This document shows positions 24,101 to 46,458 of a stretch of 64,000 nucleotides of DNA, one piece after another. The translations under genes and the position numbers were made by a program. How positions within the stretch are numbered: the first letter of the stretch is position 1; each line of letters begins with the position of its first letter. Origin of the DNA: Marsupella aquatica. Taxonomy: Eukaryota > Plantae > Marchantiophyta. The notes beneath the pieces were generated by a model. That model ran no database searches. It saw only the letters and a program-made list of their open reading frames with translations, and was not told where the DNA came from. The stretch lies in contig OZ316897.1 in the NCBI GenBank assembly GCA_973895155.1, positions 18,014,457-18,078,456 of the forward strand, written 5' to 3'.

Positions 24101-24814
24101 GTACAAGCAACTTGTTTGACAGAGGGCAGTCAACCATGTTTGGATGAGGATGACATTGGCAAGGGAGTGGATGATATCAATGTTGGGGCAAATGAGGATA
24201 TCAGCAAGCATGACAATGATACCATTGAGCCAGATTCATGCTATGTAGATCTTGACTCCATTGCAGAGATAAATGATTTGCAGAATGTATCATTCTCAAT
24301 GACAGGTGTGCCTCTTGTTGAGATAAATCCAACCAAAGAGTTAGTTGGTATGACACTCCCAGGTGATGAACCTGCTACTGTGACAGTCCTAACAGAGGAA
24401 CCTACTGAGCCTAGCTTCACTACTGTGAAGAGAGGAAGCATGCGCACACGAAGCAAGTCTGCTGGTGGGAGCAGAGCCACGTCAAAGGTTTCATACAAAC
24501 CTCCAAGAACAGTGCTGGCAAAAAGATCTAAGGTGGAAGTGGGGAAAGCACCTAATGCTGAGGGACAAAGTGGCTTGTTAGCTGTTGATGAGAGTGGAAC
24601 ACGAGTAGGATTTGCCAGAGTGCAGGTTGGTTCCACAACGTTCCATGGCAAGAGGATTCCCCCAGGTTATTCAGTAGTGTTAGTCACATTACTAGTGAAA
24701 CCTAAAGCTGTCCTTCCCATTCCAAACACAAATGATGATCCTCCTCAAAAGACACTTGGAGATGCTGCAGGTTCTTTGGTATTATGGCCAAGCAAGTTCA
24801 TAGAGGATCCATAA
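21127..24814 (+). CDS. CACTA TnpA-like multi-exon accessory gene with a C-terminal DUF8039/Tnp1-like domain
   Basis: Series of short GT-AG exons downstream of TnpD; last exon ends VGFARVQVGSTTFHGKRIPPGYSVVLV...LPIPN..DDPPQKTLGDAAGSLVLWPSKFI, typical of CACTA ORF2 products. Confidence 0.65.
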
Positions 24815-25353: not shown

Positions 25354-25640
25354 ACACTAAATAGTCACACGCTAGTCGTTGTTGAATGCGGGTAAGTCAT
25401 GTATGTGACTTACGATGTGACTCGCTGAAGTCATATTGCAGTCACGTCGAAACAAGGCTAGACTCCACAATAAAGTCACAGATCAGTCACAAATGGGTAT
25501 CAAGCAAGTTGCAAAGCCCAGTATCAATAGTGACTTCCATTTTTTGGTCTCAACTTTTGCAACTCCAAGGGTCACAGCGTGGGTCAAGTCACGTTGAGTC
25601 ACAATGAAGTCACATGAGCCAAAATGAGTCATATATTGCG
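25354..25640. repeat. CACTA subterminal repeats (AGTCAC/GTGACT)
   Basis: Dense cluster of agtcac/gtgact/agtcat hexamers just inside the right TIR; matching tgact copies at ~7400-7500. Confidence 0.7.
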
Positions 25641-25669
25641 GTCTCAGTTCACCTCAGATTCTTCTAGTG

Positions 25670-26230
25670 ATATCCTCCAACAAGAATTGGGAGGGAGTAA
25701 CCTTGCACCAGTTACCCCGGCTCAACCCAGTGCAGAAGATATTTTGAGAGAGCGTCAAAGATTGGAGCAAATACAAAGTTTGCCAAAGGCACGACAACCT
25801 TTGGATCCTTCGATGGGTCGACACATTTTGGGACGGATGAACATTGAGTGTTCATGTTGTAAAGCTCTTCATTGGATTGAAGAGTGCAAGTCCGGAACAC
25901 AACGCCATCCGTGCTTCACGATGTGTTGTGCCGATGGGAAGGTGGATTTGCCTCCAATTGGTGCTCCTCCAGAGCCTTTGCGGAGTTTGTTGACTGGAAG
26001 TAACGTTGCGGCTACAACCTTTCGGAAGAATATTAGAGGGTACAATAATGCCTTGGCTTTTACATCAATAGGTGTTAAAATTGATGAAAGGGGGGGCAAC
26101 CAGGGTCCGTATTCATTTCGCATACAAGGAGCTTTATATCATCGGGCCGACAGCCTCTTGCCGCCTGATGGAGAGGGTCCCAAGTTTGCTCAACTCTATA
26201 TTCATGACACGGGGAATGAGTTGGGCAACA
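25670..26230 (+). pseudogene. Helitron RepHel piece 2 (zinc-finger-like region)
   Basis: LGRMNIECSCCKALHWIEE...CCADGKVDLPP...FRKNIRGYNNALAFTSIG...FRIQGALYH...PKFAQLYIHD, then a putative GT donor at ~26231. Confidence 0.9.
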
Positions 26231-26688
26231 AGTATTTTCACATTCAACTTGAACCATCTTCCTCCATCTTCCTCTTATGACGCATTTTTGTTTGCAATAA
26301 GTTGAGATCAGCCTATTCATTAAAAGTGTATTTTCTTTTGTTCACAAATCAGTCCTGAAATGTACAATTTTATGTCCCCAAATGTACACTTTACGAAGCC
26401 CAAATGTACACTTTATAGGCCAAATCTTATTAGTATTATATTAATATATTATATTATATTATATTATATTATATTAATTATAATAGTATTATATTACTTA
26501 TTAGTTCACAAAGAACCATGGGATAGAGATCATACTTGTAAAAACATTTCCGCACAAAGAAGCCCAGGCAAGGACCATTGATTGATAAAGTGTGAAAATA
26601 ATTATTTACAATTGTGTCCAAACTTACAATGAATATCCAGGGCTGGCACCATTTTTACTATCTAATGGGCTTAACATGAGTCAGATCT

Positions 26689-27822
26689 CTAAACAAAGTG
26701 CTCCTTACAATATTTATTTGAGCACGTGTCTTTGTCTCCTTTACTATCTACCCTAATGTCACAGTTGCAACTCCCTTTATCTTCAGGGAGATGAAATTTG
26801 GTGGTGTTGTTCCTAACTGCTATAATCTCCCGCAAAAAGTGTCTGGGATTTTCTCTATACAGACCTGAATATTCCTGTCCTACAAATGATCTAGCAAGTG
26901 AGGTGACAAGTGCATCGTCAAGTTCCACCTCAGGACGTAAGCTACATATACGGTGCTTCACAGCCCAAGGAATCTCATTGCTATTGAGGTCCAGCACACT
27001 ATGCCTATACTGTGACTTCCAAATTTTTGCTGCACATCTCTTACTAAGTTGATCATAAGTAATCTCATTTTTTGCCTTGTCTCTCTTAATGTGCAATAGA
27101 GACCACTTTGGAGAGTTTAGGAGAAGATAACAACGAATGTCACTTGCATGTGACAGTTTCTCAAGACATGGCCAAAGAATTGTTAGAAGAAAATTGTCTC
27201 CACGATTGGCATGCGTGTAGGACACTGGAAATAGTCCGGTCATGTCTGGGTTGGCAAATGCCTTCAAGGGGGAGTCATCCACAAGGAGTGTGTTGGTTTC
27301 ATCATATAGATTTCCAAATGCACTCCATACCACCCAAAAATCCTTCAATAGCACATTTGCCTTTCCATTTGTAATGTCACGCCTTTGAATGCCTGTGTCA
27401 AAGGCTTCCACCTGTGTGAATACAAACTTCAGTTTCAACCGCTCCTCAATTGTGAACATCATGTTCAACATTTTCACTGTTCGCGGCATCCCAACACATG
27501 TCCAAATTGCAACGTCAAACCTGTCAAAAACCAACTTTAGAAACTCATGGAGCCCTGGCCTCTCTGTATACATGCGACTAGTTCCATTTGATCTATCCCA
27601 ATGCACTCCACTTGAGGTGACAATATTCCTGGATGTGCCCTTGCTTTGGAATTCAATAGAATCCCAAAGTATTTTATTAAGGTCCAAAATCAGCAACTTC
27701 CGCTTGAGGGGACCAGGTCTCGATTTTGCAAGTGCACCAAACACCATTCTCAGAGACAAGACCAAAAGTGAACTTTGGATTAGGATTGTCTCAGTCCAAA
27801 AATACAAGACAATGGCTGACAA
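26689..27822 (-). CDS. FCP1/SCP (NIF)-family HAD phosphatase-like protein, TE cargo
   Basis: KRKLLILDLNKIL (motif I variant), RPGLHEFLKLVFDRFDVAIWT, LLKDFWVVW, YDETNTLLVDDSPLKAFANP. Open 377-codon frame; true start may be in an upstream exon. Confidence 0.8.
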   Translation of the reverse strand: MSAIVLYFWTETILIQSSLLVLSLRMVFGALAKSRPGPLKRKLLILDLNKILWDSIEFQSKGTSRNIVTSSGVHWDRSNGTSRMYTERPGLHEFLKLVFDRFDVAIWTCVGMPRTVKMLNMMFTIEERLKLKFVFTQVEAFDTGIQRRDITNGKANVLLKDFWVVWSAFGNLYDETNTLLVDDSPLKAFANPDMTGLFPVSYTHANRGDNFLLTILWPCLEKLSHASDIRCYLLLNSPKWSLLHIKRDKAKNEITYDQLSKRCAAKIWKSQYRHSVLDLNSNEIPWAVKHRICSLRPEVELDDALVTSLARSFVGQEYSGLYRENPRHFLREIIAVRNNTTKFHLPEDKGSCNCDIRVDSKGDKDTCSNKYCKEHFV

Positions 27823-29112
27823 AAAAGAAAATTAACCTACATACCGTTTTTAGAAGCCTCACAATGTGTAGACGGATATGGAGACTTTAATTGGTGAGCG
27901 CATTCTGTGAGACCGAGAAGTATTTTAGATTGATATGAATAAATACAAAGTCAAAGGCTGAATTTCATCCCAAAATAAGAGATCCGTATTCATCAATAAT
28001 CATGTCAGTACCAAGCTCCTGTTGGATTTCAAAATTGACATCTGAAGTACTTTGTTCTACCCAATAAGGTGAAGTCCAAACAGGAGTTATCAACCCCAAT
28101 TCTCCACTCTTATACTCCTCCTTATTGAGAATTGAAGGAGCAGCATCCAATGATATTTCTTGGCCTCGATTTGGCCCACTTTTCCACACGTAACATCGTG
28201 CGTCGCATTCCAATGACCTCCATCCAGTTGATCCAACTCTATTTCCTTTCTTTTTTGAGAGCGGAAGGACAATAGGACTCCCCGAGTGTGAACGAACGAA
28301 CACCAATTTGTCATCAGAAGCTGAAAAGAGTGTGTCAGGACAAGTTGAAGCACCTGCCTGGTTGTCAGCAGCCGTTGATGCATTTCCTCCTGGATTGATC
28401 GGAATGTTAGGCAATCCGCCAGTCTCCCCCTCGGTCTCCCCCCGAGTCAATTCTTTAGTTTCAGCTTCATTTGAATCTCCGAGCCTCGTTGCGCCTTCAT
28501 TGATCAGATTGGTTGAAGAAAGATGATCAAACGTATCAACCCTTGCTCCTTCCAATTGCTCCATCTGTCATCCCGGCGTTGTTGGATTGGGATCATCCTT
28601 GTCCAAGTTATCATCAACTTGAACTTCATTGGGCCCCGGAGGGATGTCATCTAAACCAGATGAACGGTTTGGTGCAAGTCCAATATCATCATCTACATCG
28701 TAAGGCTCACCTTGACCAACATGGTCATCCAAATTCTTGACATATGCCTCCTCTGATGCCTCTACGCCTTCAGCCACTTTGTCAGCAACATCTTCAGACT
28801 CAGAACCATCGGATTCAACAGCGACAGCTACAGCCGCAATAGTGGTAGCCCATTGTCGAGAATTTTCAGCAAGTGATTCACAATGAGCTTTAAGTGAGGG
28901 AACTCTCTCGCAAAGGTAGGAAGCAAAAGCTTCCACAAAATGCCTCTCGGAGTGAGAGTCACAATAAACAAAGCATTCCCTATCGCAAAAAAATGATGTC
29001 TTCATGACTTGGCCACCGGAGAAGAAATCTAGAACCAAATCTCCCGGTTCTGACAAGGATTCAATAATCCTTTGGATCATCCGCGTGGGTTTGGCATGAG
29101 GATTAACCCACC

Positions 29113-30638
29113 TATCGTATAGGGCTCAAGGTAAAAACTATGTGTTTAGACCAAAAGGACACGAATTCGATCCCGATAAGAACAGAATTGAATCAGATTG
29201 AATAATTTTAGCCTTTTGAGAGCTTTAGAGCCTCTTGCTCTCTATTATTCTCAAACTTACTCCTAACAGAAGTAAACAAATTAATCAAAACAACAACAAA
29301 TGGTCTTCTGAGTTATAGGGGAGGATAAACTTAGATTGAGATGATTTAATTAACATTTTAACATTGCCACTCCTTAAGAAAGGACTCTGGTCTTAGCATG
29401 TATAAAATGGTAACTTGCTATCATTCTTCAATCAACCTTTCTCTCTAACCTATAATAATGCTGCTGGTGGGAATTTTGCTCACCAAACCCAGGGTAATTT
29501 TCTGGTTACAAATGCAATGATAAACCTTAAGATGCCGTCAACATGATTCGACTAAGTATGATACATGACTTAAGTCAAATTCTAAGGTTTATTCCAGTAG
29601 AGAGTAACGGTACTAATTCCTTTGAAAATGGAATTTTGCCTCTCACAAACAATATTCATCCTCAAATTGGCTAGCGAATCTCGTCGCAGCGAGTAAGCCT
29701 AGCAGTGAACTCGATCTGAATCTCAGAAGCTAATCATTAAATTCAATCACCACAAAAGAGTCTTGAATTCAATCACACTTCAAAATCAAAGTTTTACTTC
29801 CATACAAAATCTTGACTCACAATGTCTTGTTACAATGGAAGGAGGAACAATTAATCAACAACCTCTATTACTGAATAATGGTTGTATCCATAGGGGAGAA
29901 GTGACTCTAAAAGACTTTATAGGTTTGGAAGCCTAACATAAGGGAGGTATGGAAAGGTATACCCTTTTGAGACTAACAAAACTTGACAAAATATGACTCT
30001 AATACTAGGTTCCAACAAAAACTAAGTCTAAGTGTTGAAATGGCTAAGTGTCATTAAACTTTTCTAATAGAATATAAGATTTGACTAGATTCCCCTATTT
30101 TTAATTCCTAATCCGTAACACCCAAAATGCTGACTTTCCTATAGTGGCTTGTACTACCTTCAATCTGCGTGCAGGCAAAATCTCAGACTTTTTTGAGTGG
30201 TCTAAGTACTTCAAAGAAATCGGACAAAAGTGTTGTTGGGTGAAAATGCAGTTTAACACAGATTTTTCTAAGTGTCGGGAAGAAAACAGGGGGACGCTTT
30301 CAAAGGGCGTCCTGAAAATGGTGGACGCTTCTAAAGGGCGTCGACAAAAAGTGACAAATTAAGTTTTGGTATCTTAGAAAATTCATAACTCCTTAACGGC
30401 TTGCCCGATGAAGCTCAAACTTAGCCAGGATAATTTCCTGTGTCTATTCTACTTGCTGCCAAAGTTTCAGACATTTTTGAAGTCTCTATCATTTTAAATA
30501 AAATAGGAGGAGAGTTAACTTTTTAATCTGCATCAAACACTTAGAATCTGTGCAGAAACTAGGTATCTTCACAAAAAGGCTGCAAAAATCCGGGAATGAG
30601 CTCCAAATGATGTAATCCGAAAAAAGTATCCATCCACA
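29113..30638 (-). mobile_element. Solo LTR related to the Athila-like LTRs at 50996/63132
   Basis: Starts TATCGTATAG (mutated TG), ends CCACA; 5-bp TSD CCACC at 29108-29112 and 30639-30643. Shares blocks with the 50996 LTR (tgccactcctt, atgccgtcaacatg, ttggctagcgaatc, ttgttacaatggaaggagg). Confidence 0.88.
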
Positions 30639-31943
30639 CCACCCTCCGCGACTGCCAACTGTCTCAAATCGAGGGGCCATATTCATAATCTTGACGGCCT
30701 CTTCCGGGTCCAAAACCACTTTTAGGTTGTCGTTTTGTGTCCCCTCATCTGATTCCTTAGCCTTCCCCTTTCCCTTGTCGATCTTGCATACTTCGTAATC
30801 AACATCCTTTGCAGTATACAAGAATTTTGGCTTTGGATAGTTGGGCTTGAAAACTTCATTCCAATTGACGTCTTCATCTCAAGAAATCCCCGCAAAGATA
30901 ACTTCTTCAATCCCCCCACCCCAACATGAGTCATGAGGGTGCGGTTGATCATCTCGAGAATAACTCCCATACTCAATGTGAATGGTCAAAGCTTTCTCTT
31001 GTCCCAGTTTACAAAGGGCACCATGGACATTCAATGCCAGTTGTCCAGGATGAGCTGTTATCGTCACAACAATCGTGGGATTTTGTGGAAGCTCCACAAT
31101 GTATTCAAAGAGAACAAGAATCTTTGCTTCAGTCCATTGTTTTTGCGGAAGCCGGCTAAAATCAACAACGGCAAGAGGGCAGGTCGGAGAAGCTTCTTGC
31201 AATGACTCTGGATCAATGGTCTTCATGAGATTGTCGCTAAAAAATGTAGCCCATGGTAGGGTCCGAGAACGTGATCCTCCGCCAAATTTCTGGCAGTATA
31301 TATCATCTAGGCGGAATGCCAATGCCGTCGGCAAGATTGCGCTCTCCCACGTATGATTTGGTTTTAAAAGGTTGGCAAGATAGACCTCGCCAACGGCTCT
31401 TCGACACCTGCTGAACTCTGAATCAATTGCTAGCGTAGGAAGAACCTCCACTACTTTCCCCCAATTAGTATTTTCTGGGAAATTCACCACATCCTTGGTG
31501 CAATAGTAGTCTTCAATAAGGGACTTCAGTTTCCGCACGATCTTCACATCTTTGGCCAACTCCTCTATAGATGGCATGTCTGATTTATTAGAGGCATCTT
31601 TCTTTAGCAATACCTTTCCTGACTTCACCCGCGTCAGTATTCTTGTGATGTCTCGTTGTGAGATCAACTCACCATCAAAACAACAAAACATGGCAACAGT
31701 AATTGCTTTTTCAGACTTCTCATTTCCTTCTACCCCAGCTCCATCGAGAAGTTTCCCATCCAACCACAACTGGCATACCAAACTCCATAACTCAAAAAAA
31801 GCATCGTCCGCAAACAGTAACCAGTAAACATTTCGACAATCTTTCCTTTCCATGGTCATTCTTGCAAGAGCCAACCAATCCTACAATTGCAAAGGAAAGT
31901 CTGTTAGTTCTCCATAACTCAATTGTTTGATAGCACTCAGGTG

Positions 31944-32340
31944 CGGACTGAGACCATCCCAGTCCAACATAGAACTAGACAGTATTAGTGGAAATATTCT
32001 ATTGAATGTGCATGATTTAGTTTGGACTGGGACCATCCCAGTCCAGAACAAAACTAGACAGTATTAGTGAAAAAAAAATCTATTGAATGTGTATGAATCC
32101 ATTTGGACTGGGACCATCCTAGTCCAACGCAAAACTAGGCGATATCAGTGGAAATATTCTATTGAATGTGCATGAATCCATTTGGACTGGGACCATCCCA
32201 GTCCAACACAAAACTAGACAATATCAGTGGACAAAGATTCTACTGAATGTGCATGAATCCATTTGGACTGGGACCATCCCAGTCCAACGCAAAACTAGGT
32301 GATATCACTGGAAATATTCTACTGAATGTGCATGAATCTA
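31944..32340. repeat. ~5 x ~80-bp tandem repeat containing the palindrome GGACTGGGACCATCCCAGTCC
   Basis: Units at ~31945, 32022, 32103, 32182 and 32263; lies in a predicted intron of the ParB/MTase gene. Confidence 0.85.
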
Positions 32341-34119
32341 CGGTATTGTACCCATCAAGCAGTAACACTTTGTACCTGAAATTTTTGATTGTCTTGAGCA
32401 TTTGTTTTGTTGTCCCCATGTTTTGGCCGGCTAGGTTTTCCACATTCCACAAATAGTTGCCTAGCATGAACGACTGTATCTTTGAAGCATGACTGAAACA
32501 CCATCGTGCTATTGATCGCATTGAATGCTCAACTAATATTGACGATGGTGTTCGATGAGATAATATTCTTGACTTTCAAAATTCCAGCTTTTTCGCCAAT
32601 GCTGTCAGCTTGGCATCCTTGTTTGCCCATTCTCGAATCCATCTGGCTGCTCTAGCCGAATGTTGACCGCTAATGGCAAGGAATTGAACCTCGCCCTTTT
32701 TCACGGCTGCTACAAAGTCCCTCCTATCTGATTCTGTGTTGTCATACTGCATTAGGTTTCTATGTTTTGTAGTGTAAGGAATCAAGTCTGCTATGTGTGG
32801 TTCATGCCCCAGATTTCTTATCATGGAATTGGCCACCTCCTTTACATGTTCTGCATTCAACATTCTGTAACAGAGTCTTGCCGACGCAGGGAAAATACTG
32901 TCTACAGGAATAGAAAATATCGAATTGATCCCAAACGTATAATATTGCTCCATTTGTTGCAATACCTCATTACCTTCTAAGACCTTCTTCTCCTCAGGAG
33001 CGTCCAACTGCTCGTCCACATCTTGTGAATGCACTGTCAGGTTTTTTGTAGTGTCATCCATGATGGCACTGTCAATTTTCTGTTTCTTCTTCTGTCTTGG
33101 TCTCTTTTCACTTGCACTCGGCTTCTCAACCGGATGTTTCTTCTCAACTCGGCTTCTCGTACTCGGCTTCTCAACTGGCTTCTCAACTGGCTTCTCAATT
33201 GGCTTCTCAACTCAGCTTCTCGTACTCGGCTTCTCAACCAAAAGTTTCTTCTCAACCGGAGGTTTCCTTTGGCTTTGTTTTCGTTTTCCCACTGCTCTTT
33301 GAGAGGTCGCTGTTGTAGTTCCCGCGGTCTCTGTTGTAGGTTCTGGAGCATTCTCTGGCACTTTCTCGGGCACAGGGTTTGTATTCACCGTTGGAAGCTT
33401 TCTCGTCTTGGACAAAGATTCTATCCATTGCTTTGCTTTGACTAAATCAAACTTGGGAGCAAATGCAACATCCTTATCAATTAAAACACCAGGCTCCTCC
33501 GACTCCAACGATAACAATCCAGCTTTCTCAAGTAAATTGCTTAACGTCCAGGTAGTTGCAAAAGAAAAATTGCCTTGGTGCTTCATCATGTTGAGTTTCA
33601 AATATTGAAACCCATACATAATGTCGACTGGAAGCATACCAGTTACCCCGACGACCAACTTCTTTGTGTCATAGGTCTTTGGAAAAAATCCCATTGACAA
33701 AATGCTCAATTCCCCACTTGCGTGCCATTTGACATTGAATTCAGAGGAGTATGCCGTTGATAGAAGGTTAACTTTAACCCAACAGGACTTATCGTGCATC
33801 TCGAGAATGACCGTATTCATCCCTCTCCCTCCAATGCAACAGAGACCACAGGTCCGCAAACAAAAGTCAGGCTATCATTTCCTCTGCACTTTAAGGTCAA
33901 AACAGGTTCAATCGTGGTTGATGGCACTTCATTATTAAGCAGGGTTCTTGAGAACTCAAGCCCCCATCGAAAGCGTGGGGATCTCTCATCTAGTAAGAAT
34001 CCGTCCAGGCAGTGGGTCGGTGCAATCGCGGGTTTGAAAACAACAAGATCGCTCCCTGCATCATAAACGTCATCCATGTTAGACTTGAAACCTTTAAAAC
34101 ATTCGAATAACTCTTGTTG

Positions 34120-34405
34120 GATTAGGATGGTCCTAGTCCAACTTGAGATGGTTTTAGACTTGCTCCTACAATCGGGATTCAATCTCCTAGATGGATTAGG
34201 ATCATCCGAGTCCAAGTTTGGATTGGGATGGTCCGAGTCCAAGTTTGGATTGGGATGGTTCGAGTCCAAGTTTGGATTGGGATGGTCCGAGTCCAAGTTT
34301 GGATTGGGATGGTCCGAGTCCAAGTTTGGATTGGGATGGTCCGAGTCCAACTTTGGATTGGGATGGTCCGAGTCCAACTTTGGACTCGGATGGTCCCAGT
34401 CCTCT
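34120..34405. repeat. 27-bp tandem array GGATTGGGATGGTCCGAGTCCAAGTTT
   Basis: About 8-9 near-identical units carrying the same imperfect palindrome as the 80-bp repeat, in opposite orientation. Confidence 0.9.
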
Positions 34406-35639
34406 AAGACTTAGGGAGGATAGGTGATGGATACTTACTAGGGATTCGTGATTGAAATTGTCTAGAGTCTTCGAGTGCTAGTTCCACACTGTCGCTCAGA
34501 GGAGAGGTCAAACTCTTCCGTTTCTTCCACGTAGGACATCACAAGGACGCGATTCGCTTCCATCTTTCTAACACGTGGCAGCGTGACACGTGGCGTCTTA
34601 GCAGGCGTCCGATCTAGGGCAATAAAAAATAATGGAGGTGGAAGGTGGAAGGCGGAGGCTGGCGGAGCCGGGGAGGCAGAGAGAGAATGGAGAGCGGAGA
34701 GAGAGCGGAGAGCAGAGAGCAAGGAGAGCGAGAGGAGAGCGAGAGAGTGAGGAGGAGAGCGAGAGGAGAGCGAGAGAGCAAGGAGTGAGAGAATGAGAAT
34801 GAGGTCTTGGCTGGACCTCTCCGTCCCTTTACCCCCTCCTACCTCACCCCGGCCTGTGTACGGCCGGTTGCCTCCTTCTACTGCGTACGGCCTGCTCTGG
34901 CGTACGGCCTGCTCCTGCATACGGCCCGTTGCCCTCACCTTGCATACGGCCTCCTTCCTTGATGTCCTGCCTACCTAACAACTTTCCATGGTAGTCCCCG
35001 CGCAATTAGGCTTTTGAAGATAAGGTGTGTCCGCAAGCTAAGGTGAACGCGTACTCAACCCTTATCTTCACGCGATTTCCGGTTGAGCCGACTCGAGCGA
35101 AGGGTATAATTTGGGAGACGCCCACTTCGGAGCTCATTCTTGTTCTAGTTTCCCAAATCTAAGCTCCATGTAATCCGGAGTGGAGTTTCTCTTAAAGTGT
35201 TATGTATTGAGCCACTTACCTTCATTGGGTCAGCTTAGCCAGCTTCTTGACTTTTGGAGTCCTCTCAGTTTATCTTTTACAGACATGTGTGGTTTAGGGT
35301 TCAGTTTTTTTTTACTCCCAAGATTTAGTGGCATATAGCTTGTATTTCAAGGTTCTGGGAAGTTTTTACCATTATTCAAACAACAATGTATACCCCTTGG
35401 ATGTGATATTCATCTTCTACCAGATCTTAATACTAAGGTGAGTATAAGGTTAATGCATTCAAATATAAGGTTCCATTATTTCATGAAATTGTATGTAGAC
35501 ATTAGGGTCTGCCTTAAGACCACGCAAACTTTAGGCTACACCATATCTAGGGAGATCCGTAAAATACGAGGTCTTCCTAAATTTGGATTTTTCTTAGCTT
35601 AAGATGTTTGAAGTTTATCTCCCATTACATCATGGGTTG

Positions 35640-36365
35640 GTCTAGGATGGTCCTAGTCCAAGTTTGGATTCGGATGGTCCTAGTCCAAGTTTGGATTAGG
35701 ATCATCCGAGTCCAACTTTGCATTGGGATCATCTGAGTCCAACTTTGGATTGGGATCATACGAGTCCAAGTTTGAACTTGGATGGTCCAAGTCCTAGTTT
35801 GGATTGGGATGGTCCGAGTCCAACTTTGGATTACGATGGTCCGAGTCCAAGTTTGGATTGGGATCATCCGAGTCCAAGTTTGAACTTGGATGGTCCAAGT
35901 CCAACTTTGGATTAGGATGGTCCGAGTCCAAGTTTGGATTGGGATGGTCCGAGTCCTAGTTTGGACTTGGATGGTCTAAGTCCTAGTTTGGATTGGGATG
36001 GTCCTAGTCCAACCTTGGACTGGGATGGTCCCAGTCCAAATCTTGAATCGGAGGATCGTAGTCCAAATCCAGACTCAAAGGATTGCAGTCCAAATCCGGA
36101 CTTGGATGGTCCCGGTCCAAATCCGGACTCGGATGGTCCCAGTCCCAATCCAGAATCGGAGGATTGTAGTCCAAATCCAGACTCGGAGGATTGCAGTCCA
36201 AATCCGAACTTGGATGGTCCCGGTCCAAATCCGGACTCGGATGGTCCCAGGCCAAATCCAGACTCAGAGGATTGCAGTCCTAATCCAGACTTGGATGGTC
36301 CCGGTCCAAATCCGGACTCGGATGGTCCTAGTCCAAATCCAAAATTGGAGGATAGTAGTCTGAAT
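35640..36365. repeat. 27-bp tandem array (~26 units) of the same palindromic motif, with variant sub-blocks
   Basis: ggattgggatggtccgagtccaagttt units grade into ggactcggatggtcccagtccaaatcc and ggaggattgcagtcc variants; ends shortly before the putative acceptor tgtgcag| at ~36412. Confidence 0.9.
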
Positions 36366-36406
36366 CAAAATTTGCATGAGTTTGGTTTTAATCCATTTTT
36401 TTCAGT

Positions 36407-39400
36407 GTGCAGGAAAATAGGAAAAGGATGTCTCAAAGGGTTTCTAGGGGCGATGATGTTACCTTGACAATTGATGGTTACGGCATTGGAAATGGGATAG
36501 TTCAAAAGACAGATCCGCGAGAGAGTGTTCAAAATATTGTGCTGGGAGAGAATCGAATTGGGGTTCTCATTGAGAAGGCCTTTGGTGAGACTAGGAAGCT
36601 CCCTTTTCCAATGCCTAGGGCAGAAAATCTTCATGATGCCATTGACTCATGTGCCATTTGGGATATGTCATGTGCATATCGATCTGCGGATAAGATTACT
36701 CAAAAACGCATCAGTATTGGTAGTTGTTCGACTCGAAAAGATAACAACATCCATAATTTTGCAAATATAGAGGAGGATGCTTCAACCACCCTAAGGCCAG
36801 GCGATGAGGTTGAAATGTTTATCTCTGGCCATTTTGTGGCCTTTGGAGTTGTTTTCAAGACCGATCCAATGGAGAGATGTCATAACATATTACTCGGTGA
36901 GTCTCGGGTTAGTGTAAAAGTCACAGATGTGATTCATGGTAGTAAGACTTTACCTTACGCACATGGTGGAGCTGCAACAATTGGAGAGGCAAAGGGCTCC
37001 TGGGTTCTATGGGATGTGGTTGACGTCCACAATAAAGTATGGAATGTTGATATTGATGGGAGCAACAAATCTTCCTCTAAGAAGCAGAAGGACAAGGCAA
37101 ATTTTGTTTCACAGTCTTGTTCGGCGAACACCACGGACACTAAGTGTGACTATTTTCATCGGGCAAACTGGATGTCAGAGTTGGTTGAACTCTACACTGG
37201 TTTGGATCGAACCAAAATGGTTGCCATTGGAATGATCACTGTCCCTCAAGTGACAGCAGCAGTTGATGATGAAATTCTTGGTGATGACCATGTTGGGATT
37301 GTTGTGAAAGATGTCGTGGCAGCACAATACTTTCCCAACATCCACAAGGGAGTAGTGAGTTTGATTCGATGGCGGATTGATTCAACAAAACTAGTTGCAA
37401 ATGGAAAATTTTTGTCAGACATTTTGGTGGAAGGTTCTGAGAGGATGGACTCAATGGATAAGGATGAACTCAATGCGGATGTAAGTGATAGAGGAGTATT
37501 GTGTTCAAGGCCGTACAATTTCAACAAGAGGAATCAAGTAGATCCGAATGAAAAGAAGAGGAGGTTGTTGGAAACCAAGGCAATTTCAAAAACAACAGAG
37601 GCGTCAATTGATGATGTGAAAAGAGAAAATTGTTGCAAGCAAAAATGTTGTCTCATTATGCCAAGGGAAAACATCAAAGATATTAGGATAGAATTTCATG
37701 GGATGTCAAGCGAGTCAAAAACGTCACATATTTTCAACCTCTTTCACTATAGAGAGGATGATGTTCGTGATAAGGGACACCATGTACTTAAGGGTATGGT
37801 CGTATGCAGACATGCATTTGCAATTATCCACGGTTTTAGCCACACCAAATATTATGATTACAAAAGGAGATATGTGGAGGGTTGCAAAATTGGGTTCCAT
37901 GGCAATACGGGCTTGATGAAAACAAGGGCAAATACCTTGCATGCACGAGCTCTGTTGGAGGCTTTTTTGACTCAAAATGCAGAGCCCATGCCTCATATGC
38001 CTTATGGAGGGGCACATGGGACAGACTCTACTGAGTACCGTCTTCCGGCGTGTTACAAGAAGCTAGAGATTCTGGAAGATGTGAGAACAAAGATGAAGGA
38101 AGAAGGGCTTCCTCCTGTCACAGAGAATACTCTCTACAAGATCTGGAGCAACTCATTTGCAAACTTCAGTTTTCATAAAGATGGTGCATTTGCCAAGTGT
38201 ACTCTTTGTTGTGAATACAAAGACAGTTTGATGCAAGAAAGAAGGAAAAAAGAACGTGCTGAAATTGAAGAAAAGCGAGCGCAACATCTTCGTGAGCAAA
38301 TGTCACGTAGATATGTTTACTACGCTCATCGAGTGATGGCCAAACAACACCCAGGAGAATATCTTTGCATTATTCACGACAACACTAGTAGAAACCGGGG
38401 GGTATTTAGACCCCATTAAACGACTATTCAATACCGTATAGGACTTGGAAACGACTGGGAAGGACTCTAGTCCTTTATAGGACTGCGAGTCGTATGTTTT
38501 GTTACTATAATCAACTGAGTCCTTTATAGAACTGGTTTATAAGTCGTTTAATAGACTGGATTTTCAGTCTATTTTAGTCTTTGTGTGGGTAGCTTTGGTG
38601 AGTCGTTTTCAATCTTTTATGGGCTGCGATGATGAGTCGTTGGGAACGACTAAAAAGGTTATGGAGGGTAGTCTTTAAATATACTTTGTGGGGTATGTAT
38701 AAGTCTTTCATGTCAACTGGATATGAGTGATGAAGACCCCACTATCCTACTTGGAATGAACCCACTCTTGTGCACAAATAACATATTGCATTCATGTTTT
38801 ATTGTGTACTTGGAATGAACTCACTCTATAAGTTCACCATTCATCATGTTAACATTAGAATACATAGTTTCAGAAAGCCATCTTCTATACCATGTACACT
38901 AATATGAATTCACAGATTCAAACTTCATAGACTACAAAGAAGGTCACAAAGTATTCCTCTATACCATACACACTAATACTGAAATGATAAAATAGATTCA
39001 AGTATCATAGACAATCACCATAGAGCCATAGTTTGACATCAATCACTTGTTTCATACATACAGAATTCAGAAATATCAATGTCACACACAACGTCTCCTT
39101 CATCCTCTTTACCAAATGGAAAAATTGGTACAGATATTTCTTGGATCTTTCCAAGGCAATGTCAAAATGTGACACAATTCACATGATTCTATCTATGGTC
39201 TAAATTGCCCCGGTTTCTACTAGTGCAAGATGGATCAAGCAAAGACATGGATTCCAAAAATGGTTAGTACTCCTAAATCTCTTTCGGGTCATGGAATGCC
39301 GCTACCTATTGCTCTCACAGGGATGTTGACCCACGGGAGGGATCCAGGAGTTTATGCACACTTTAGTGTCACTGGCCTTTGGCCAAGAGATGCCGATTTC

Positions 39401-40816
39401 ACAGTGACATCCTTGGCTAAGTGTCTCCGAGACCTTGAAGAGTACAATGGAGACAAGACAGGTGACATGTTGGATGGCCTTCATTGGGAACCTCATAGAC
39501 CTTTCTTTCAAGCCCTACTTGACTTTGAAGCATTTTTTACGGGTTATTTGGAACCAAAGAATATACCGATGAATAGGTATATTGGTTCTGAAGATGGAGC
39601 TGAGAGTCAGACTGAGACCGTCCCAAACCAACAAGATGAGGATGAAGGAGAAGACATGCAAGGAGAGCAAGGCAGTCCATCGTTCAAGCCCTTGCCAAGG
39701 CACCTAACATTGCAGATGGATAATTCAACAAAGGACAACAAAAACCAGACTGTCATGGCATTTTGTAGCGAGCTTGTGAGTAGAGGAGTATTTGAAACTG
39801 TCCAAATGTCTTTTCTAATGGTTGGTCATACGCACGAAGATGTTGATGCACTCTTTTCAAAGGTATCATATCAAGTTCAGCACAAAGAAGTTGCAACCCT
39901 CCTTGCTCTTATGGCAGAGGTATGGGAATGCGAGAGCATTCATCCAGTTCCCAGATTGATACAAGAAGTTGCATCTTACAAAGAATATCTTCAAACTTTC
40001 AAGGTGAAAGATATTCAAGGTCACTCAAAACCTGTATCATTTCTTTTCTCTATGAGAGATAATGTACCAATATTTCAGTATAAGTCCCATGTAAAGCAAG
40101 CTTGGGCTCCAGTTGGTGGAAGGTGCATTTGGGCAACAGATTTGACAACAAATTCTCTTCTTTTACCTAGTGGAGAGCCCTTAGCTAAATCCATTGGAGA
40201 GATACACAAAAAATCTGAAGAGATTATCCCATTTCTTAACAAGTACCTTGATTTTTTGAGAAGGAGTTGCACTGATGAGACATCTATAGCATATAAGGAA
40301 AGATTTTCTCTTGTGAAATATTGGGAGAGAATTGTGGAGTTGTTGACAAATGGGCTCGCACTAGAAGGGGAGGGAAGTACTCAATTTCCCTTGAAAAACA
40401 GATTTTGGCCTAAGACTAACCACGGCACTGGTTACAAGGTCAACCAACGGGAACAAAGTGGTCCTCCAAGTGAAGATGAGGAGAATGCAGAGATAACGGC
40501 TCTTCAAAATGAGGTCTTGGAAGAGATGGAAGATCAAGCAACACCATTTGTTGGATCTCGAGCTGAGAGAGAACAAGGACGATGGATTCCTTTACAGGAT
40601 ATTTGTGAAGGAAACTTTGTATTTCTTCGACCCGAGGATGATTGGGAACGAGATCCAGGGTTTGGTGAGAATACTCAACATTGGCAGTATGCAAATTCTG
40701 CAATGTATGGTTTTAAATCTAGAATGAAAGAAGAAAACATGGCGGGCAGAGGTTTGAAGATCCCTCAAAATGTTCTACAAACTGTCCAAAATTATCTTCA
40801 AAGGATGGACAAGTAG
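36407..40816 (+). pseudogene. Sola1-like DDD (RNase H-fold) transposase with three N-terminal DUF8039-like repeats, split by a CACTA MITE
   Basis: CCKQKC...VCRHAF..IHG; FAKCTLCCEYK; rejoined YLCIIHDKMDQAK (first Asp); LQMDNSTKDNKN (second Asp); FLMVGHTHEDVDALFS (third Asp). Confidence 0.8.
38383..39225. mobile_element. 843-bp non-autonomous CACTA element
   Basis: TIR CACTAGTAGAAACCGGGG...CCCCGGTTTCTACTAGTG; 3-bp TSD CAA; removal restores the IHDKMDQ frame. Confidence 0.95.
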
Positions 40817-41072
40817 ACTTAGTTGTTAGAAGCTATAATAATTAAATAGATAGTTACTAGTTTTTATGTAACTAAGATAGTCACTCATTCAAACATAGTA
40901 ATTTACGTACTAGTTATTTACTATTCTTACTAATAGTTTTAATTTGATACTATCTCCTCATTTTCTAAACTTTGGATCATTATGAATATGAATGTTTGCT
41001 TTTTCTATATAATTAAAAATAATTTTCTATTCATTCCTTTCTTTTAAATGATTATAAGAAGAGTTGGTAGGC

Positions 41073-41352
41073 AAATGTACACTTTTTAGGCCAAATGTAC
41101 ACTTTGTTGCACTAAAAGTTACACTTTCTAGATCAAATGCACTTAAATGTACACTTTTTAAGCCAAATGTATGCATTTTTCACTCAAATGTACACTTTCT
41201 AGGCCAAATGTACTCAAATGTACACTTTTAAAGCCAAATGTACCTATTTTGATGTTCAAATTTACACTTTTCATTGCCCAAATGTACACTCTTTGGGCCA
41301 ATTGTACACTTTTCCAAGCCCAAAAGTACATTTTTCATTGCCCAAATGTACA
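41073..41352 (+). repeat. AAATGTACACTTT subterminal repeat cluster (also at 26358-26425)
   Basis: About 12 near-palindromic copies spaced ~20 bp apart, inside the right TIR of the 15-kb element. Confidence 0.8.
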
Positions 41353-41423
41353 TAAATCAAATAATAATACACTTTTAATGAATAGGCTGATTGAGTCTCA
41401 TTGGATTTTATGTTGGGTTGCAG

Positions 41424-44115
41424 GATGAATCACATGCCGCAGTTGGATGAGGCGGTGCTTGCTTCTTTGCAAGAAATGCTCCATATCCACAACCCTTATG
41501 TGCAGATGTTCAAAAATGCCGGGAGCCGCATTCATGACGCTGAGGTGCCAGAGGTTTTGCTGCGTATTGTAGCTGAATGTGACATTGACCCAAGACGTTA
41601 CAATAAACCCACGGCGGATGAGATTGGTGTGATCATGGTTGGGGATGAGGATATTGAAACATGTGGTCGAGATATTATCCTAAGGACAAGGGATGGGGGC
41701 CTACGTAGGATTTCAGAGTGGCATAGGTCCTATGCTCCTCTCCACTGTCTTACTCTTTCCGCATGGCCAAGACAGGTGGTCGATCTTATGACATCCCATT
41801 GGTGGGCCATGAATTTCAAGATGGGGTCATTGTGGCAGTTGAACCCCAAGCAAGGGGTGGACGTAATGGCTCCAAAAAGGTTACACAACTACAATACTAT
41901 GCATACTTACTACATGCAAGGCGAGGTGATGATTGGTTGCTTCGTGGAGGGCGATTGCTAAAGCAATATATTGTGGACGCATATGCATGCATAGATCAAA
42001 CGCGACTGACCTATATTCGCAACAATCAAAAAAAGTTGCGCACGGAACTATATCAAGGGCTTCAAGATGCAGTTCAAGATGGAGATGCACGTGCAGGTGA
42101 TGTGGGTAGGACCTACATTTTGCCGTCCTCATATGGGGGTAGTGCCCGCAATATGATGCAGGCATACCAAGATGCCATGGCCGTTGTACGCACGTATGGT
42201 CCCCCTGACCTTTTTACCACATTTACATGCAATCCTGAATGGCCAGAAGTCAGAGCGAAGTGCTACCCCTATCAGACCCCGGCCGATCGAGATGACATTG
42301 TTGCTCGAGTGTTCAAACTCAAGTTGAAGGCACTTTTGGCGGACATTCGTGCAGGGGTCTTAGGTAGACCTGTTGCCTCTATGTATGTCATCGAGTTTCA
42401 AAAGAGGGGTTTGCCGCATGCCCACATTTTGATCATATTGGTTGAACGCCATAAACTACGCATGTTGGAGTTGGTGGACCAATTAGTTTCTACAGAGATA
42501 CCAGACGTGAGGGTGTATCCGCAATTATTTCAGACTATCACAAAATGCATGATGCATGGACCGTGTGGTCGGGGGTACCCCAACTCGCCTTGCATGGTTG
42601 ACGGACAGTGTAGCAAGGGCTACCCTCGACCATTTTCAATTGAAACAGTTTTTGGGGATGATGGGTATCCCATGTATCGGCGTCGAGATGATGGGCGCAA
42701 TTTCACAAAGGACAGAAGCGGGTTTAAGTTTGATAATAGGTGGGTTGTTCCTCATAGTCCGTATTTGAGCATGAAATACAATGCTCATATTAACGTGGAG
42801 ATATGTTGCTCTATCAAAGCCATTAAGTACTTATATAAGTACTGCTACAAAGGGCATGATAAAGCAACAGTGGAGGTAGAGCAGCGTGATGAAATAAAAG
42901 AGCATTTAGATGCTAGGTATGTGTCTGCTGCAAAAGGAGTATGGCGGATTAATCAGTTTGAAATGTCGGAGAGTAGTACTTCGGTGCAACGGCTGCAGGT
43001 GCATTGCGAGGGGGAACAATCAATTATGTTTCATGAAGATTCTGAGATCATTGATGTGGTCCAACAAGAATCTCATAGGGATACAACTCTAACTGGGTGG
43101 TTCAAAGCAAATGCTTTGCACGAACACGCGAGGCAGATTCTGTATACAAACTTCCCTCATGACTTTGTATGGAATCCGACAATACGTGCATGGACTCCTC
43201 GAAGAAGGGGGTTTAGCATTGGAAGGATGTATTTTGTGCCACCTGCTGCGGGGGAACGATACTACTCGCGAGCACTTCTACTTCATGTCAAAGGTGCAAC
43301 ATCATTCGTTGACCTTAGGACTTTTGAGGGCATTGTATACCCAACTTTTCAGGCAACGGCTCTTGCTTGGGGTTTGTACGAGAACGATGAAGAATGGGAT
43401 AGATGTCTTCAAGAAGCGGCCGGTATGCAGACGGGGGCACAACTTTGACAACTATTCATCACAATCATGTTATTTGGAGGTGTTGCTAGACCGTGTGACC
43501 TATGGACCCAACATGCATCAAATTTTAGCGATGATTGTTGTTATCATCTACGTTCAATGGGTTTTTTGGATCCCATTGAGGAGCAACAACAAAGCTTTGC
43601 CCTATATTTGATCGATGAGGCTTTGAAAAGTATTGGTAAAACATTGTTGGGGTTTGGTCTTCCGGTTCCAAGTATGCAATTTTTTGAAGAACCGGAAAAT
43701 AGGAATCGCTTGATATGGGAGGAGACATGCTACCCGATTGATGTACTTCTTCAACAACTTGCTGAACAAGAGCCGTTGTTAAATGATGGCCAAAGGGCAG
43801 CCTACACTGCAATACTTGCAGCAGTGAGGGCTCGAGATGGAGGAACATTTTTTGTTGATGGGCCAGAGGGGACAGGCAAAACATTTATAGTGGAGAATAT
43901 TCTATTGAGGAGAGTGCGTGCTGATGGGGATGTGGCATTGGCTGTGGCTTCCTCGGGTATTGTAGGTCTTTTGTTAGATGGAGGGCGCACTGCCCACTCA
44001 CGATTCAAGCTTCCGTTGAAACCGATCTCAACATCAACGTGTGCTGTTCAAAAACAATCTGACCTTGGTGGACTGTTACGGAGGGCAACTTTTATCTTAT
44101 GGGATGAAGCACCCA
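41424..44115 (+). pseudogene. Helitron RepHel piece 3: HUH Rep domain and start of the PIF1-type helicase
   Basis: RRYNKPTADEI; ILPSSYGGSAR; PDLFTTFTCNPEW; VIEFQKRGLPHAHIL; IKYLYKYCYKGHD; FFVDGPEGTGKTF; GGRTAHSRFKLP; LWDEAPM. Frameshift ~41750, stop at 43446, truncated by an insertion at 44116. Confidence 0.93.
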
Positions 44116-45524: not shown

Positions 45525-46458
45525 TGTTGACTCTTTTGAAGTTAACCTTGCATGCTTATAAGTTCTACACTAAAATCAAAATGATAATTCTAGTAACAAG
45601 GGTAGTGGGTATTAAGAAAGGTTCAGGTGAAACTAAAATACTGTTAAACTCTATTTCACCATACTTGCGGACCAACACATCACGAAAATTAGTTTTCTTA
45701 CGACATATGATCCTAATATCTCCAAGAGAAAATGAAACAGGAATATCATTCGGACTCCTATTCAGATTCATGACTTCAATAAAGGACAAAGATGATGCAC
45801 TCTCACTCCTCTCGGTACGACACCACTGGGTATATTATTGGCTCGTTAGAAACCATAACAGCAGTTGCAAACTGAGCTCCAAAATGATAGGTTAGATGTT
45901 GCCTCATAGATGGTTTGTCTAAAAGATGGACTCTAATCAAAAACGGATTACGAAGGGGAAGATCAGGGATAACTCTCTCTCCTGGATTCATGATGGCTCA
46001 TCTATTCCTTTGCTATCCGGGCCAAAGGACGCCCCACCCCTATATTCCCAAAGAAACCTTATTCCCTAAGGTCCCATCTATAAATCTACCACTCATTCCT
46101 TTGCTATCCGGGCCAAAGGACGCCCCACTACTATGTTCAAGGCACAAAAGAGCTTCACAACCTTGAATGATAAACACTGCGGAATGAGGGGAGAGTGCCC
46201 CTCACCACTTTATTTATAGTGCACACCAAGAGGGCATGGATCAAGCCCAAGCACTTGGATGAAGGCCAAGTGTCAAACATCTAATACCTAAGAGTGTGCT
46301 AGTACTATTCATAGTTGGTGAAACTACTTTTAGTAGATGGAACTGTGATGCCTAGACAGGAATCACTCGGCCGGTTAAGTGGGTAAAGCAGGAAGGCACC
46401 CTAGGAACACCTTAGTATAGGGACAAAACAAGGAAAATATAAACAATTAGGGGCAACC

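What the first reader, a model, noticed from the sequence alone, without database searches (positions are those of the whole stretch)
26307..41391. Giant Sola-like transposon carrying a ParB-methyltransferase-fold gene, a CTD-type phosphatase and palindromic arrays: candidate self-encoded epigenetic system
Seen: 26-bp TIRs and a 4-bp TSD bound 15 kb in which a DDD transposase (+) lies divergently from two cargo genes (-), a ParB/Srx-like + N4/N6-MTase-fold protein and an FCP1/SCP-like phosphatase. One palindrome is arrayed at three non-coding sites. Known: Sola elements make 4-bp TSDs; ParB-MTase fusions are typical of phages and prokaryotic mobile elements; VANDAL TEs use VANC proteins bound to their own repeats to escape silencing. 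Inference: this is a coherent module in which the element marks or protects its own DNA and tunes Pol II on it. I know of no described TE with this gene set.
Basis: partly seen in the sequence, partly recalled or inferred. Interest (0 to 1): 0.88.

Follow-up and report, generated by a model that had tools for sequence, protein, structure and literature searches.

The report
Plant transposon with two pseudo-enzyme passengers
This is a broken copy of a repeated cut-and-paste jumping gene, likely from a liverwort, that carries a DNA-methylase-shaped protein and a phosphatase-shaped protein, both missing their usual active-site motifs, plus 38 copies of its own palindrome that the first protein likely binds to keep the element switched on; the core design is already published for algal transposons.

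Summary
Perfect 26-bp TIRs (26307/41391) and a TGAG duplication bound an element inside a Helitron intron. It is about 12.7 kb once a solo LTR and a CACTA MITE are subtracted, and other copies lack both inserts. It holds a DUF7869 DDD transposase, a ParB-like plus beta-class amino-methyltransferase-fold gene, a NIF/SCP-fold gene and 38 copies of a 23-bp palindrome (none elsewhere in the window), placed 5' of all three genes. This copy is dead. Cargo relatives occur in Calypogeia and Riccia.

The novelty claim fails in part. Ectocarpus Sola1-1_Ec32 carries a ParB-methylase gene opposite its transposase, and red-algal Plavaka elements carry ParB genes beside inverted-repeat arrays; self-binding was proposed for both.

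The 'self-marking enzymes' reading is doubtful. The methylase family has D-F-S-R where DPPY belongs (0 of 116 hits have the motif), the phosphatase has DLN for DxD (7 of 8), and the ParB-like motif lacks its Arg. The likeliest mechanism is non-catalytic, sequence-specific self-recognition (inferred, untested). New versus the papers read: land plants, the phosphatase-like partner, and the catalytic loss. This scan already reported the same kind of element on other DNA of this genome.

The parts
26303..26306 (.). left target-site duplication TGAG
   Evidence: sequence
26307..26332 (+). left TIR, 26 bp perfect
   Evidence: contig depth jump and 7 contigs with unlike flanks at 26307 in run X1
26358..26411 (+). 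left subterminal AAATGTACAC repeats (3), likely transposase-binding sites (inferred)
26689..27747 (-). cargo B: NIF/SCP-fold HAD protein, 352 aa, open frame, DLNKIL in place of DxDxT, invariant C-terminal cysteines
   Evidence: Pfam NIF E 5e-14; alignment A1; AF2 pLDDT 81.9; Foldseek CTDNEP1/SCP E 1e-10
27776..27798 (.). single palindrome 29 bp before the cargo B ATG
27965..29112 (-). cargo A, 3' part: methylase motifs X and I (NPHAKP, DFFSGGQ), acidic linker, conserved C-terminal domain; stop at 28570-28568; one palindrome at 28583
29113..30638 (.). later insertion: LTR-like piece (likely a solo LTR) with 5-bp duplication CCACC; 392 bp of it are 73% like the Gypsy LTRs at 50996/63132
   Evidence: skipped by contigs in 3 of 4 runs
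30639..31880 (-). cargo A exon 2: helical domain and first half of the beta-class methylase fold with DFSR at the DPPY position; stop at 30881-30879
   Evidence: 46% identity to Calypogeia P0001
31881..32375 (-). cargo A intron (GT-AG, phase 0) holding 5 palindromes in a 79-81-bp tandem array
   Evidence: homologue P0001 runs across it; splice ends seen; array; no RNA evidence
32376..34077 (-). cargo A exon 1: N-terminal domain, basic linker, ParB/Srx-like domain (about 33052-32579, ISGQHS); frameshifts near 33820 and 32510, stops at 33214-33212 and 32578-32576
34118..34403 (.). 9 palindromes (27-bp tandem array plus one copy 41 bp before the likely ATG), in a predicted 5' intron of cargo A (donor-like GTAAGT at 34438)
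34404..35637 (.). GC/GA-rich divergent intergenic region, likely a bidirectional promoter (inferred)
35638..36335 (.). 22 scored palindromes in a 27-bp tandem array, in a predicted 5' intron of the transposase (donor-like GTGAGT at 35438)
36428..38382 (+). transposase, N-terminal 650 codons with CxxC, ending at the first catalytic Asp (IIHD)
38383..39225 (.). later insertion: non-autonomous CACTA element with 3-bp duplication CAA
   Evidence: skipped by contigs in 4 of 4 runs
39226..40816 (+). transposase, C-terminal part: DUF7869, QMDN (39713) and GHTHEDVD (39824) motifs
   Evidence: Pfam E 2.8e-44
41073..41353 (+). right subterminal AAATGTACAC repeats (10)
41366..41391 (-). right TIR
41392..41395 (.). 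right target-site duplication TGAG

Best explanation
This is a decayed copy of a repeated 12.7-kb cut-and-paste transposon, likely of the Sola1 type and likely from a liverwort, whose ParB-like/methylase-shaped accessory protein lacks the methylase catalytic loop and likely works as a non-catalytic, sequence-specific binder of the element's own palindrome to keep its three genes transcribed, with the phosphatase-shaped protein as its likely partner. Shown: element ends, nesting, repeat nature, gene structure by homology, folds (predicted models), motif changes, and palindrome placement 5' of each gene. Inferred: (1) protein A binds the two-fold symmetric 23-bp site as a dimer; the reading head is more likely the helical region or the methylase recognition surface than the ParB-like domain, which in bacteria is the CTP clamp (recalled). 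(2) The kept SAM-side motifs bind cofactor or hold the fold while methyl transfer is lost or atypical. (3) Occupancy shields or opens the divergent promoter against host silencing, as VANC does. (4) Protein B binds or traps a phosphoprotein of the transcription machinery rather than turning it over. (5) The transposase uses the TIRs and the subterminal AAATGTACAC repeats.
For: Ends and TSD. Repeat family: all 30 of 30 bins are covered in 4 of 4 runs; contigs skip the LTR (3 of 4 runs) and the MITE (4 of 4); summed depth jumps from 19-498 to 10,329-212,042 at the left TIR. Cargo A family: 116 phmmer hits, named members from Calypogeia and Riccia. P0148 carries the ParB-like, middle and methylase parts in one chain. 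Against L001: 35% amino-acid identity over 302 codons with 11 of 40 four-fold sites identical, i.e. long purifying selection. Fold: CcrM Z 18.0, rmsd 4.0, 220 aligned. Motif IV register score 9.32 at D279 against 2.72 for the next position; columns D 26/28, F 22/29, R 22/29. 0 of 116 hits have [DNS]PP[YFW]. SAM-side K451 32/33, G476 30/33. A-B linkage: one Riccia gene model fuses them (P0131), and 2 of 7 NIF relatives share source and contig length with cargo A relatives (5992 and 5883 bp). DLN in 7 of 8 NIF rows, DxD in 0 of 8; DxNxT NIF proteins are classed as predicted pseudophosphatases (PMC13216928 passages). Palindrome 38 inside, 0 outside. Analogues.
Against: No binding, methylation or expression data. 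No second full-length copy was seen: no contig spans the element, so TIR-to-cargo linkage in other copies is inferred from coverage and joints, and the tool warns that depth is no copy number. Recent selection on cargo B is not shown: 13 of 32 listed variants are synonymous against 8.5 expected, P = 0.054 (45 further rows not shown). The motif IV Asp and the SAM motifs are strongly kept, which fits an atypical active enzyme equally well, and the pseudophosphatase paper itself lists motif-degenerate enzymes that stay active. hhalign placed DPPY about 8 residues off the D279 register, at low confidence. The ParB assignment rests on Atlas model-to-model TM 0.52-0.64, under the service's naming bar; no Pfam ParB hit in 6 of 6 members. 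The element's CpG o/e (0.33-0.73) is no higher than that of its neighbours (0.36-0.74), so there is no footprint of escape from methylation. The contig-length matches are indirect, and the P0131 NIF part lacks motif I.
Confidence: 0.45

Rival explanations
1. Active atypical self-marking system: protein A is a working N4/N6 methyltransferase with a rewired D-F-S-R active site that methylates the element (or its RNA), and B is a slow or unusual phosphatase.
For: The whole beta-class fold is kept (Z 18.0). The catalytic-position Asp (26/28) and SAM-side motifs are conserved across two liverwort classes. The nucleophile Asp, Lys and DDS of B are largely kept. A liverwort is known to make 4mC with a TSPPY enzyme (bioRxiv 2021.02.12.428880 passages).
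Against: 0 of 116 relatives have the PP-aromatic loop that binds the target base in known amino-methyltransferases (role of the loop is established knowledge). Motif I is DFFSGGQ, not DxFxGSG. B lacks the general-acid Asp in 8 of 8 rows.
Confidence: 0.25
2. The cargo aids transposition rather than chromatin control: A (or the transposase N-terminus) binds the palindromes to assemble or target the transpososome, in the way MURB partners MURA.
For: The largest array (22 copies) lies in front of the transposase gene. ParB-type proteins act on inverted repeats. An accessory protein-transposase interaction is shown for MuDR (PMC12973397 passages).
Against: The palindromes sit 5' of each gene and in predicted introns, not at the ends, which have their own repeat. 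This placement resembles VANC targets in non-coding regions (abstract and section titles).
Confidence: 0.17
3. The palindrome arrays are sites for a host transcription factor or simple satellite expansions, and A and B are conserved for an unrelated job (for example B as a regulator of a host phosphoprotein such as the proteasome or lipin).
For: The closest solved sequence for B is UBLCP1 (E 4.2e-10) and the top fold match is CTDNEP1, neither a Pol II enzyme (recalled). The one related locus with DNA, L001 (1.8 kb, including the end of the homologous intron), has 0 copies of this palindrome.
Against: Single copies lie 29 and 41 bp before the ATGs of B and A, apart from the arrays, and none occurs in 49 kb of other TEs in the window. 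A family-specific motif is what the VANDAL model predicts, so absence in a 35%-identical relative is expected.
Confidence: 0.1
4. Chance composite: a small MITE's TIRs around unrelated, neutrally decaying DNA.
For: Depth at the TIR exceeds most of the interior, so other or shorter elements share these ends. No full-length second copy was seen.
Against: One motif ties together all three genes and both halves. Coverage is continuous and only the two nested inserts are skipped at high support. The cargo is conserved at protein level. The same layout is published for Ectocarpus.
Confidence: 0.03

Closest known systems
Sola1-1_Ec32 of Ectocarpus (PMC12477816; passages, reference entries and supplement rows read; figures and protein sequence not seen)
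   Same: Large (21.5 kb) TIR element with 4-bp TSD; accessory gene on the strand opposite the transposase; ParB-like plus N4/N6-methyltransferase domain in one 1104-aa protein; self-binding and self-modifying role proposed.
   Different: Brown alga versus land plant. Termini AACCG and a 282-bp imperfect TIR versus ATCAG and a 26-bp perfect TIR. No phosphatase gene or arrays are mentioned in the passages read ('phosphatase' 0 times in 5 supplements; main text not searched for it). Its catalytic motif was not seen, whereas the family here lacks it.
Plavaka accessory genes PAG2/PAG3 of red algae (bioRxiv 10.1101/2025.02.11.637652; passages read; supplements closed)
   Same: ParB-like accessory protein next to tandem arrays of inverted repeats; a PF01555 methylase cargo; the module moves among TE superfamilies; self-binding proposed.
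   Different: EnSpm/Plavaka transposase; ParB is fused to a 2OG oxygenase and the methylase to SET; 'phosphatase' occurs 0 times in the main text.
VANDAL/VANC of Arabidopsis (PMC5735166; abstract and section titles read)
   Same: Works-like model: a TE-encoded protein binds family-specific motifs amplified as tandem repeats in the element's non-coding regions.
   Different: Mutator-type element (recalled); no homology to VANC tested or expected; VANC action is shown experimentally, this one is not; the motif here is a 23-bp palindrome.
Beta-class DNA amino-methyltransferases (CcrM, M.RsrI, M.PvuII, rotifer N4CMT, Marchantia DN4MT1)
   Same: Fold and motif order IV...X-I.
   Different: No (D/S)PP(Y) motif; fused to ParB-like and C-terminal domains; TE-borne. 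MpDN4MT1 has TSPPY.
NIF-family HAD phosphatases (SCP1, FCP1, CTDNEP1, UBLCP1) and fungal DxNxT NIF pseudophosphatases (PMC13216928; passages read)
   Same: Fold; Asn at the second Asp position, as in the fungal group.
   Different: TE cargo; an extra helical and cysteine-rich C-terminal part conserved in 8 of 8 rows; substrate unknown.

Membership tests
Sola (Sola1) DNA transposons | TIRs with a 4-bp TSD | tested here: met
   26-bp TIR and TGAG/TGAG; 4-bp TSD listed for Sola1-1_Ec32. One insertion site only.
Sola (Sola1) DNA transposons | DDD catalytic triad transposase | tested here: met
   IIHD, QMDN and GHTHED motifs, DUF7869; their assignment as the triad is recalled, not structurally tested.
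Sola (Sola1) DNA transposons | Homology or phylogenetic grouping with Repbase Sola1 transposases | not testable with these tools
   No Repbase set; the defining paper (Bao 2009) is not held; DUF7869 has 0 papers. The Sola label is recalled, plus analogy to Sola1-1_Ec32.
ParB-methylase transposon accessory proteins (Ectocarpus type) | ParB-like and N4/N6-methylase domains in one protein | tested here: met
   P0148 and P0123 hold both; folds.
ParB-methylase transposon accessory proteins (Ectocarpus type) | Gene inside a TIR element, opposite to the transposase | tested here: met
ParB-methylase transposon accessory proteins (Ectocarpus type) | Direct homology to the Ectocarpus protein | not testable with these tools
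   Its sequence was not returned by any tool; all named hits were liverwort.
Beta-class amino-methyltransferase (active) | Beta-class fold and motif order | tested here: met
   Z 18.0 CcrM, 15.9 PvuII; profile hit M.RsrI E 2.6e-08.
Beta-class amino-methyltransferase (active) | Motif IV (D/N/S)PP(Y/F/W) | tested here: not met
   0 of 116; D-F-S-R at the register; window copy DFSR.
Beta-class amino-methyltransferase (active) | SAM-binding motifs X and I | tested here: met
   NPxxKP and DFFSGG conserved in 22-32 of 33-34 rows per column, in variant form.
Beta-class amino-methyltransferase (active) | Methyl transfer to DNA | not testable with these tools
   needs a biochemical assay
ParB/Srx CTP-binding domain | ParB/Srx fold | tested here: inconclusive
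   Atlas TM by query 0.52-0.64 to ParB_N/DndB clusters, under the naming bar; Pfam DndB E 0.031 in 1 of 6.
ParB/Srx CTP-binding domain | GxxR arginine motif (recalled) | tested here: not met
   Ser follows the His in 11 of 11 relatives examined and in the window.
FCP1/SCP CTD phosphatases | NIF/HAD fold | tested here: met
FCP1/SCP CTD phosphatases | DxDxT/V motif I | tested here: not met
   DLN in 7 of 8, ELV in 1 of 8, DxD in 0 of 8.
FCP1/SCP CTD phosphatases | Acts on the Pol II CTD | not testable with these tools
   the fold matches CTDNEP1, SCPs and UBLCP1 alike
VANC-type anti-silencing system | Family-specific motif amplified in the element's non-coding regions | tested here: met
   37 of 38 copies non-coding by the homology-based gene model, 0 outside the element.
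VANC-type anti-silencing system | Protein binds the motif and removes silencing | not testable with these tools
   needs EMSA/ChIP and methylome data
VANC-type anti-silencing system | Homology to VANC | not tested
   no VANC sequence was fetched

The most novel reading that the evidence does not exclude
Liverwort Sola-type transposons have turned a phage-type ParB-methylase into a catalytically dead, SAM-pocket-keeping DNA reader and paired it with a DxN pseudo-phosphatase, forming a two-pseudoenzyme anti-silencing switch: A docks on family-specific palindromes at every promoter of the element and B grips a phosphorylated transcription component. This would be an invention independent of VANC, old enough to span both main liverwort classes, with a natural library of protein-palindrome pairs.
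Probability: 0.25. Interest if true: 0.8.

Novelty: new variant of a known kind. Interest (0 to 1): 0.48.

Why it matters
[quoted passage not shown] The algal ParB-methylase cargo is only a hypothesis, in organisms with few genetic tools. A land-plant version, with relatives in Riccia and Calypogeia, could make it testable in liverworts and names a precise candidate site (a 23-bp palindrome). The family-wide loss of DPPY and DxD changes the prediction from 'writes 4mC/6mA' to 'binds and shields', and offers a case of pseudo-enzyme evolution within mobile DNA. The limits: the architecture and the idea are in print, this copy is dead, and the scan has already flagged several such elements in this genome.

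Tried and rejected
No whole genome is held, so copies could not be collected through the TIR. No RNA holder listed among 6 runs. Single-sequence PDB searches with the ParB-like and middle pieces gave nothing credible. Viral-contig scan with cargo A: 6 pattern matches, 0 relatives. metagenome scan with the ParB alignment: 434 matches, 0 relatives; with the methylase alignment: 1 of 153, a 1.8-kb contig too short to test neighbours. PHROGs: only motif X/I matches to phage methylases, in 4 of 9 proteins. Pfam gave no ParB family for 6 of 6 members. hhalign against 3 of 6 phage methylases (3 dropped for lacking a regex match to one motif) gave probability 98 overall but an unreliable motif IV register. 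The ungapped register test used 5 of 6 phage proteins and 47 of 66 family rows. The synonymous-excess test on cargo B was inconclusive (P = 0.054); a further 26 rows over all genes gave 11 synonymous and were not tested. The 7 of 7 synonymous run at 27088-27196 is post hoc and not counted. The empty Helitron site was not among the listed joints or loose ends (many rows not shown). CpG depletion gave no signal. No complex prediction was run and NCBIfam was not scanned. Literature searches for absence: liverwort+transposon+ParB+methyltransferase returned 1 unrelated paper; transposon+FCP1+phosphatase+accessory gene+TIR listed 11 of 12 papers, none with FCP1. Iyer 2011 (ref. 50 of the Ectocarpus paper, on green-algal examples) was not read, and bioRxiv supplements are closed; either could mention land-plant or phosphatase cases. 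Rejected: MITE-plus-junk composite; 15 kb as the native size; chance TIR.

Full report
1. Observation. The element is real. Bases 26307-26332 and 41366-41391 are perfectly complementary and are flanked by TGAG on both sides. It interrupts a Helitron gene inside a predicted intron. Of its 15,085 bp, 1,531 belong to an LTR-like insert (29113-30638 plus CCACC duplication) and 846 to a CACTA MITE (38383-39225 plus CAA duplication), leaving 12,708 bp. Contigs of public runs skip the first insert in 3 of 4 runs and the second in 4 of 4, so other copies lack them. At the left end, summed contig depth rises from 19-498 to 10,329-212,042 in the four runs, and 7 contigs of run X1 continue into unlike flanks exactly at 26307. 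All 30 bins are covered in all runs. The tool warns that depth is no copy number, the runs are two studies of which one may be the source, and no contig spans the element. The family is therefore repeated, but a second full-length copy was not seen; no genome is held.

2. Genes. The transposase (36428-40816, +) has CxxC, IIHD, QMDN and GHTHED motifs and matches DUF7869. I file it as Sola1-like from recall and from the 4-bp TSD; no reference set or defining paper was available. Cargo A (about 34077 to 27965, -) is one gene by homology. P0001 of Calypogeia fissa aligns across its intron and the LTR, P0028 joins the ParB-like part to the middle, and P0148 holds the ParB-like, middle and methylase parts in one 1009-aa chain. 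The window copy has four TGA stops, two frameshifts and the LTR. Cargo B (27747-26689, -) is an open 352-codon NIF-family frame. Named relatives come from Calypogeia and Riccia, so the host is likely a liverwort; this is inferred, not determined.

3. Folds and motifs. An AlphaFold model of P0001 (66-row alignment, mean pLDDT 71.7, higher over most of the folded part) matches beta-class amino-methyltransferases over residues 245-524 (CcrM Z 18.0, rmsd 4.0, 220 aligned), and the family profile finds M.RsrI at E 2.6e-08. But 0 of 116 phmmer hits contain [DNS]PP[YFW], and the 28 that cover the motif IV strand read D-F/L-x-R/K or a near variant (26 with Asp). Sliding the strand-plus-Asp of 5 phage methylases along the family profile picks D279 with score 9.32 against 2.72 (47 of 66 rows kept), although hhalign put the motif about 8 residues off at low confidence. 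Motifs X and I are kept as NPxxKP and DFFSGG. The ParB-like part has model-to-model TM 0.52-0.64 with ParB_N and DndB clusters, below the naming bar, no Pfam ParB hit, and Ser where the GxxR Arg is recalled to be, in 11 of 11 relatives. Cargo B folds like CTDNEP1, SCP1-3 and UBLCP1 (pLDDT 81.9) but has DLN for DxD in 7 of 8 rows and DxD in none. DxNxT NIF proteins are classed as predicted pseudophosphatases in fungi, in a paper that also notes active exceptions (PMC13216928 passages).

4. Module coherence. Cargo A is under long-term purifying selection: 35% amino-acid identity over 302 codons to L001 with four-fold sites saturated (11 of 40; the alignment was made at protein level, which favours positions 1 and 2). 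Recent selection on B among copies is not shown (13 of 32 synonymous, 8.5 expected, P = 0.054).

5. Palindrome. TGGAYTNGGAYNRTCCNAGTCCA occurs 38 times in the element and never in the other 49 kb: 22 before the transposase, 9 before A, 5 in A's intron, 1 just before B and 1 in A's coding tail. The two 5' arrays lie behind donor-like GT(A/G)AGT signals (35438 +, 34438 -), so they are probably in 5' introns; there is no RNA evidence. The ends carry a different repeat, AAATGTACAC (13 copies).

6. Mechanism. Most likely (0.45), A binds the symmetric site as a dimer and keeps the element's genes active without writing a methyl mark, with B as a phosphoprotein-binding partner. Rivals are an atypical active methylase (0.25), a transposition helper (0.17), a host-factor site with unrelated cargo (0.10) and a chance composite (0.03). 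The anatomy is shown; every functional step is inferred. CpG depletion in the element is like that of its neighbours, which gives no support for escape from methylation, though a dead copy need not show it.

7. Comparison with what is known. PMC12477816 describes the 21.5-kb Sola1-1_Ec32 with a ParB-like plus N4/N6-methylase gene opposite the transposase and proposes self-binding and self-modification (passages and supplement rows). The Bostrychia preprint describes ParB accessory genes beside tandem inverted-repeat arrays (passages). VANC supplies the working model (abstract and section titles). PMC4738411 mentions chlorophyte methylases fused to a ParB-type HTH and inactive methylase domains in DIRS1 elements (passages), so TE-borne pseudo-methylases have a precedent. 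My searches found no paper on a liverwort case or on a NIF cargo, but Iyer 2011 was not read and bioRxiv supplements are closed. The scan's own notes (8 of 29 listed) report the same kind of element elsewhere in this genome: two with a phosphatase part and a degenerate motif, others described as self-marking methylases. They agree with a reading I had written before opening them, are unreviewed, and are not counted as evidence; the 'pseudo-methylase' wording matches theirs.

8. Verdict. A new variant of a known kind: real and coherent, with a published core design. The additions are the land-plant setting, the phosphatase-like partner and the family-wide loss of catalytic motifs. Interest 0.48.

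Noticed in passing
window 25618-26231 and 41423-44117 (+): A Helitron Rep/helicase gene (Helitron_like_N E 2.3e-57) is split by the element, which sits in a predicted 102-bp GT-AG intron (donor 26232, acceptor 41422).
   Followed up: partly
window 14636-24811 (+): A CACTA/EnSpm transposase (Transposase_21 E 3.8e-70, 17218-19143) lies beside ORFs for an NSD-like PHD-finger protein (14636-15340, below Pfam cut-offs) and a twin BRCT protein (15891-16805, E 2.3e-13): possibly another cargo-bearing element with chromatin-reader genes. A CACTA-type end at 7365 pairs weakly with 25669 (15 of 20, no matching 3-bp duplication).
   Followed up: partly
window 50996-64000 (-): A Gypsy-type retrotransposon with LTRs 99.9% identical over 869 bp (very recent), gag and pol ORFs, and an extra 881-codon ORF (52929-55571) with no Pfam match.
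   Followed up: no
window 7365 and 38383-39225: The MITE inside the transposase has ends 17 of 20 like the CACTA-type end at 7365.
   Followed up: no
window 36428-37450 (+): The transposase N-terminus has no Pfam match and by eye three beta-rich units ending in W-D/W-R; it shares a short GxAxGSxVLW motif with the ORF at 23960-24811 (E 0.033, weak).
   Followed up: partly
window 26358-26411 and 41073-41353: The subterminal AAATGTACAC repeats point the same way at both ends rather than mirroring each other (13 copies, all on the + strand).
   Followed up: no
proteins P0026-P0030 (Atlas): The ParB-like part resembles fungal DUF3723 clusters and unnamed cnidarian and mollusc clusters (feature score 0.95-0.96), hinting at a wider eukaryotic family of ParB-like proteins.
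   Followed up: no
window 46405-50088 (+): Two long ORFs (700 and 527 codons, the second coiled-coil-like) with no convincing Pfam family, between the Helitron and the Gypsy LTR.
   Followed up: no
L001 1-1802: A metagenome contig with a 35%-identical cargo A relative appears to have its intron at the same place.
   Followed up: partly
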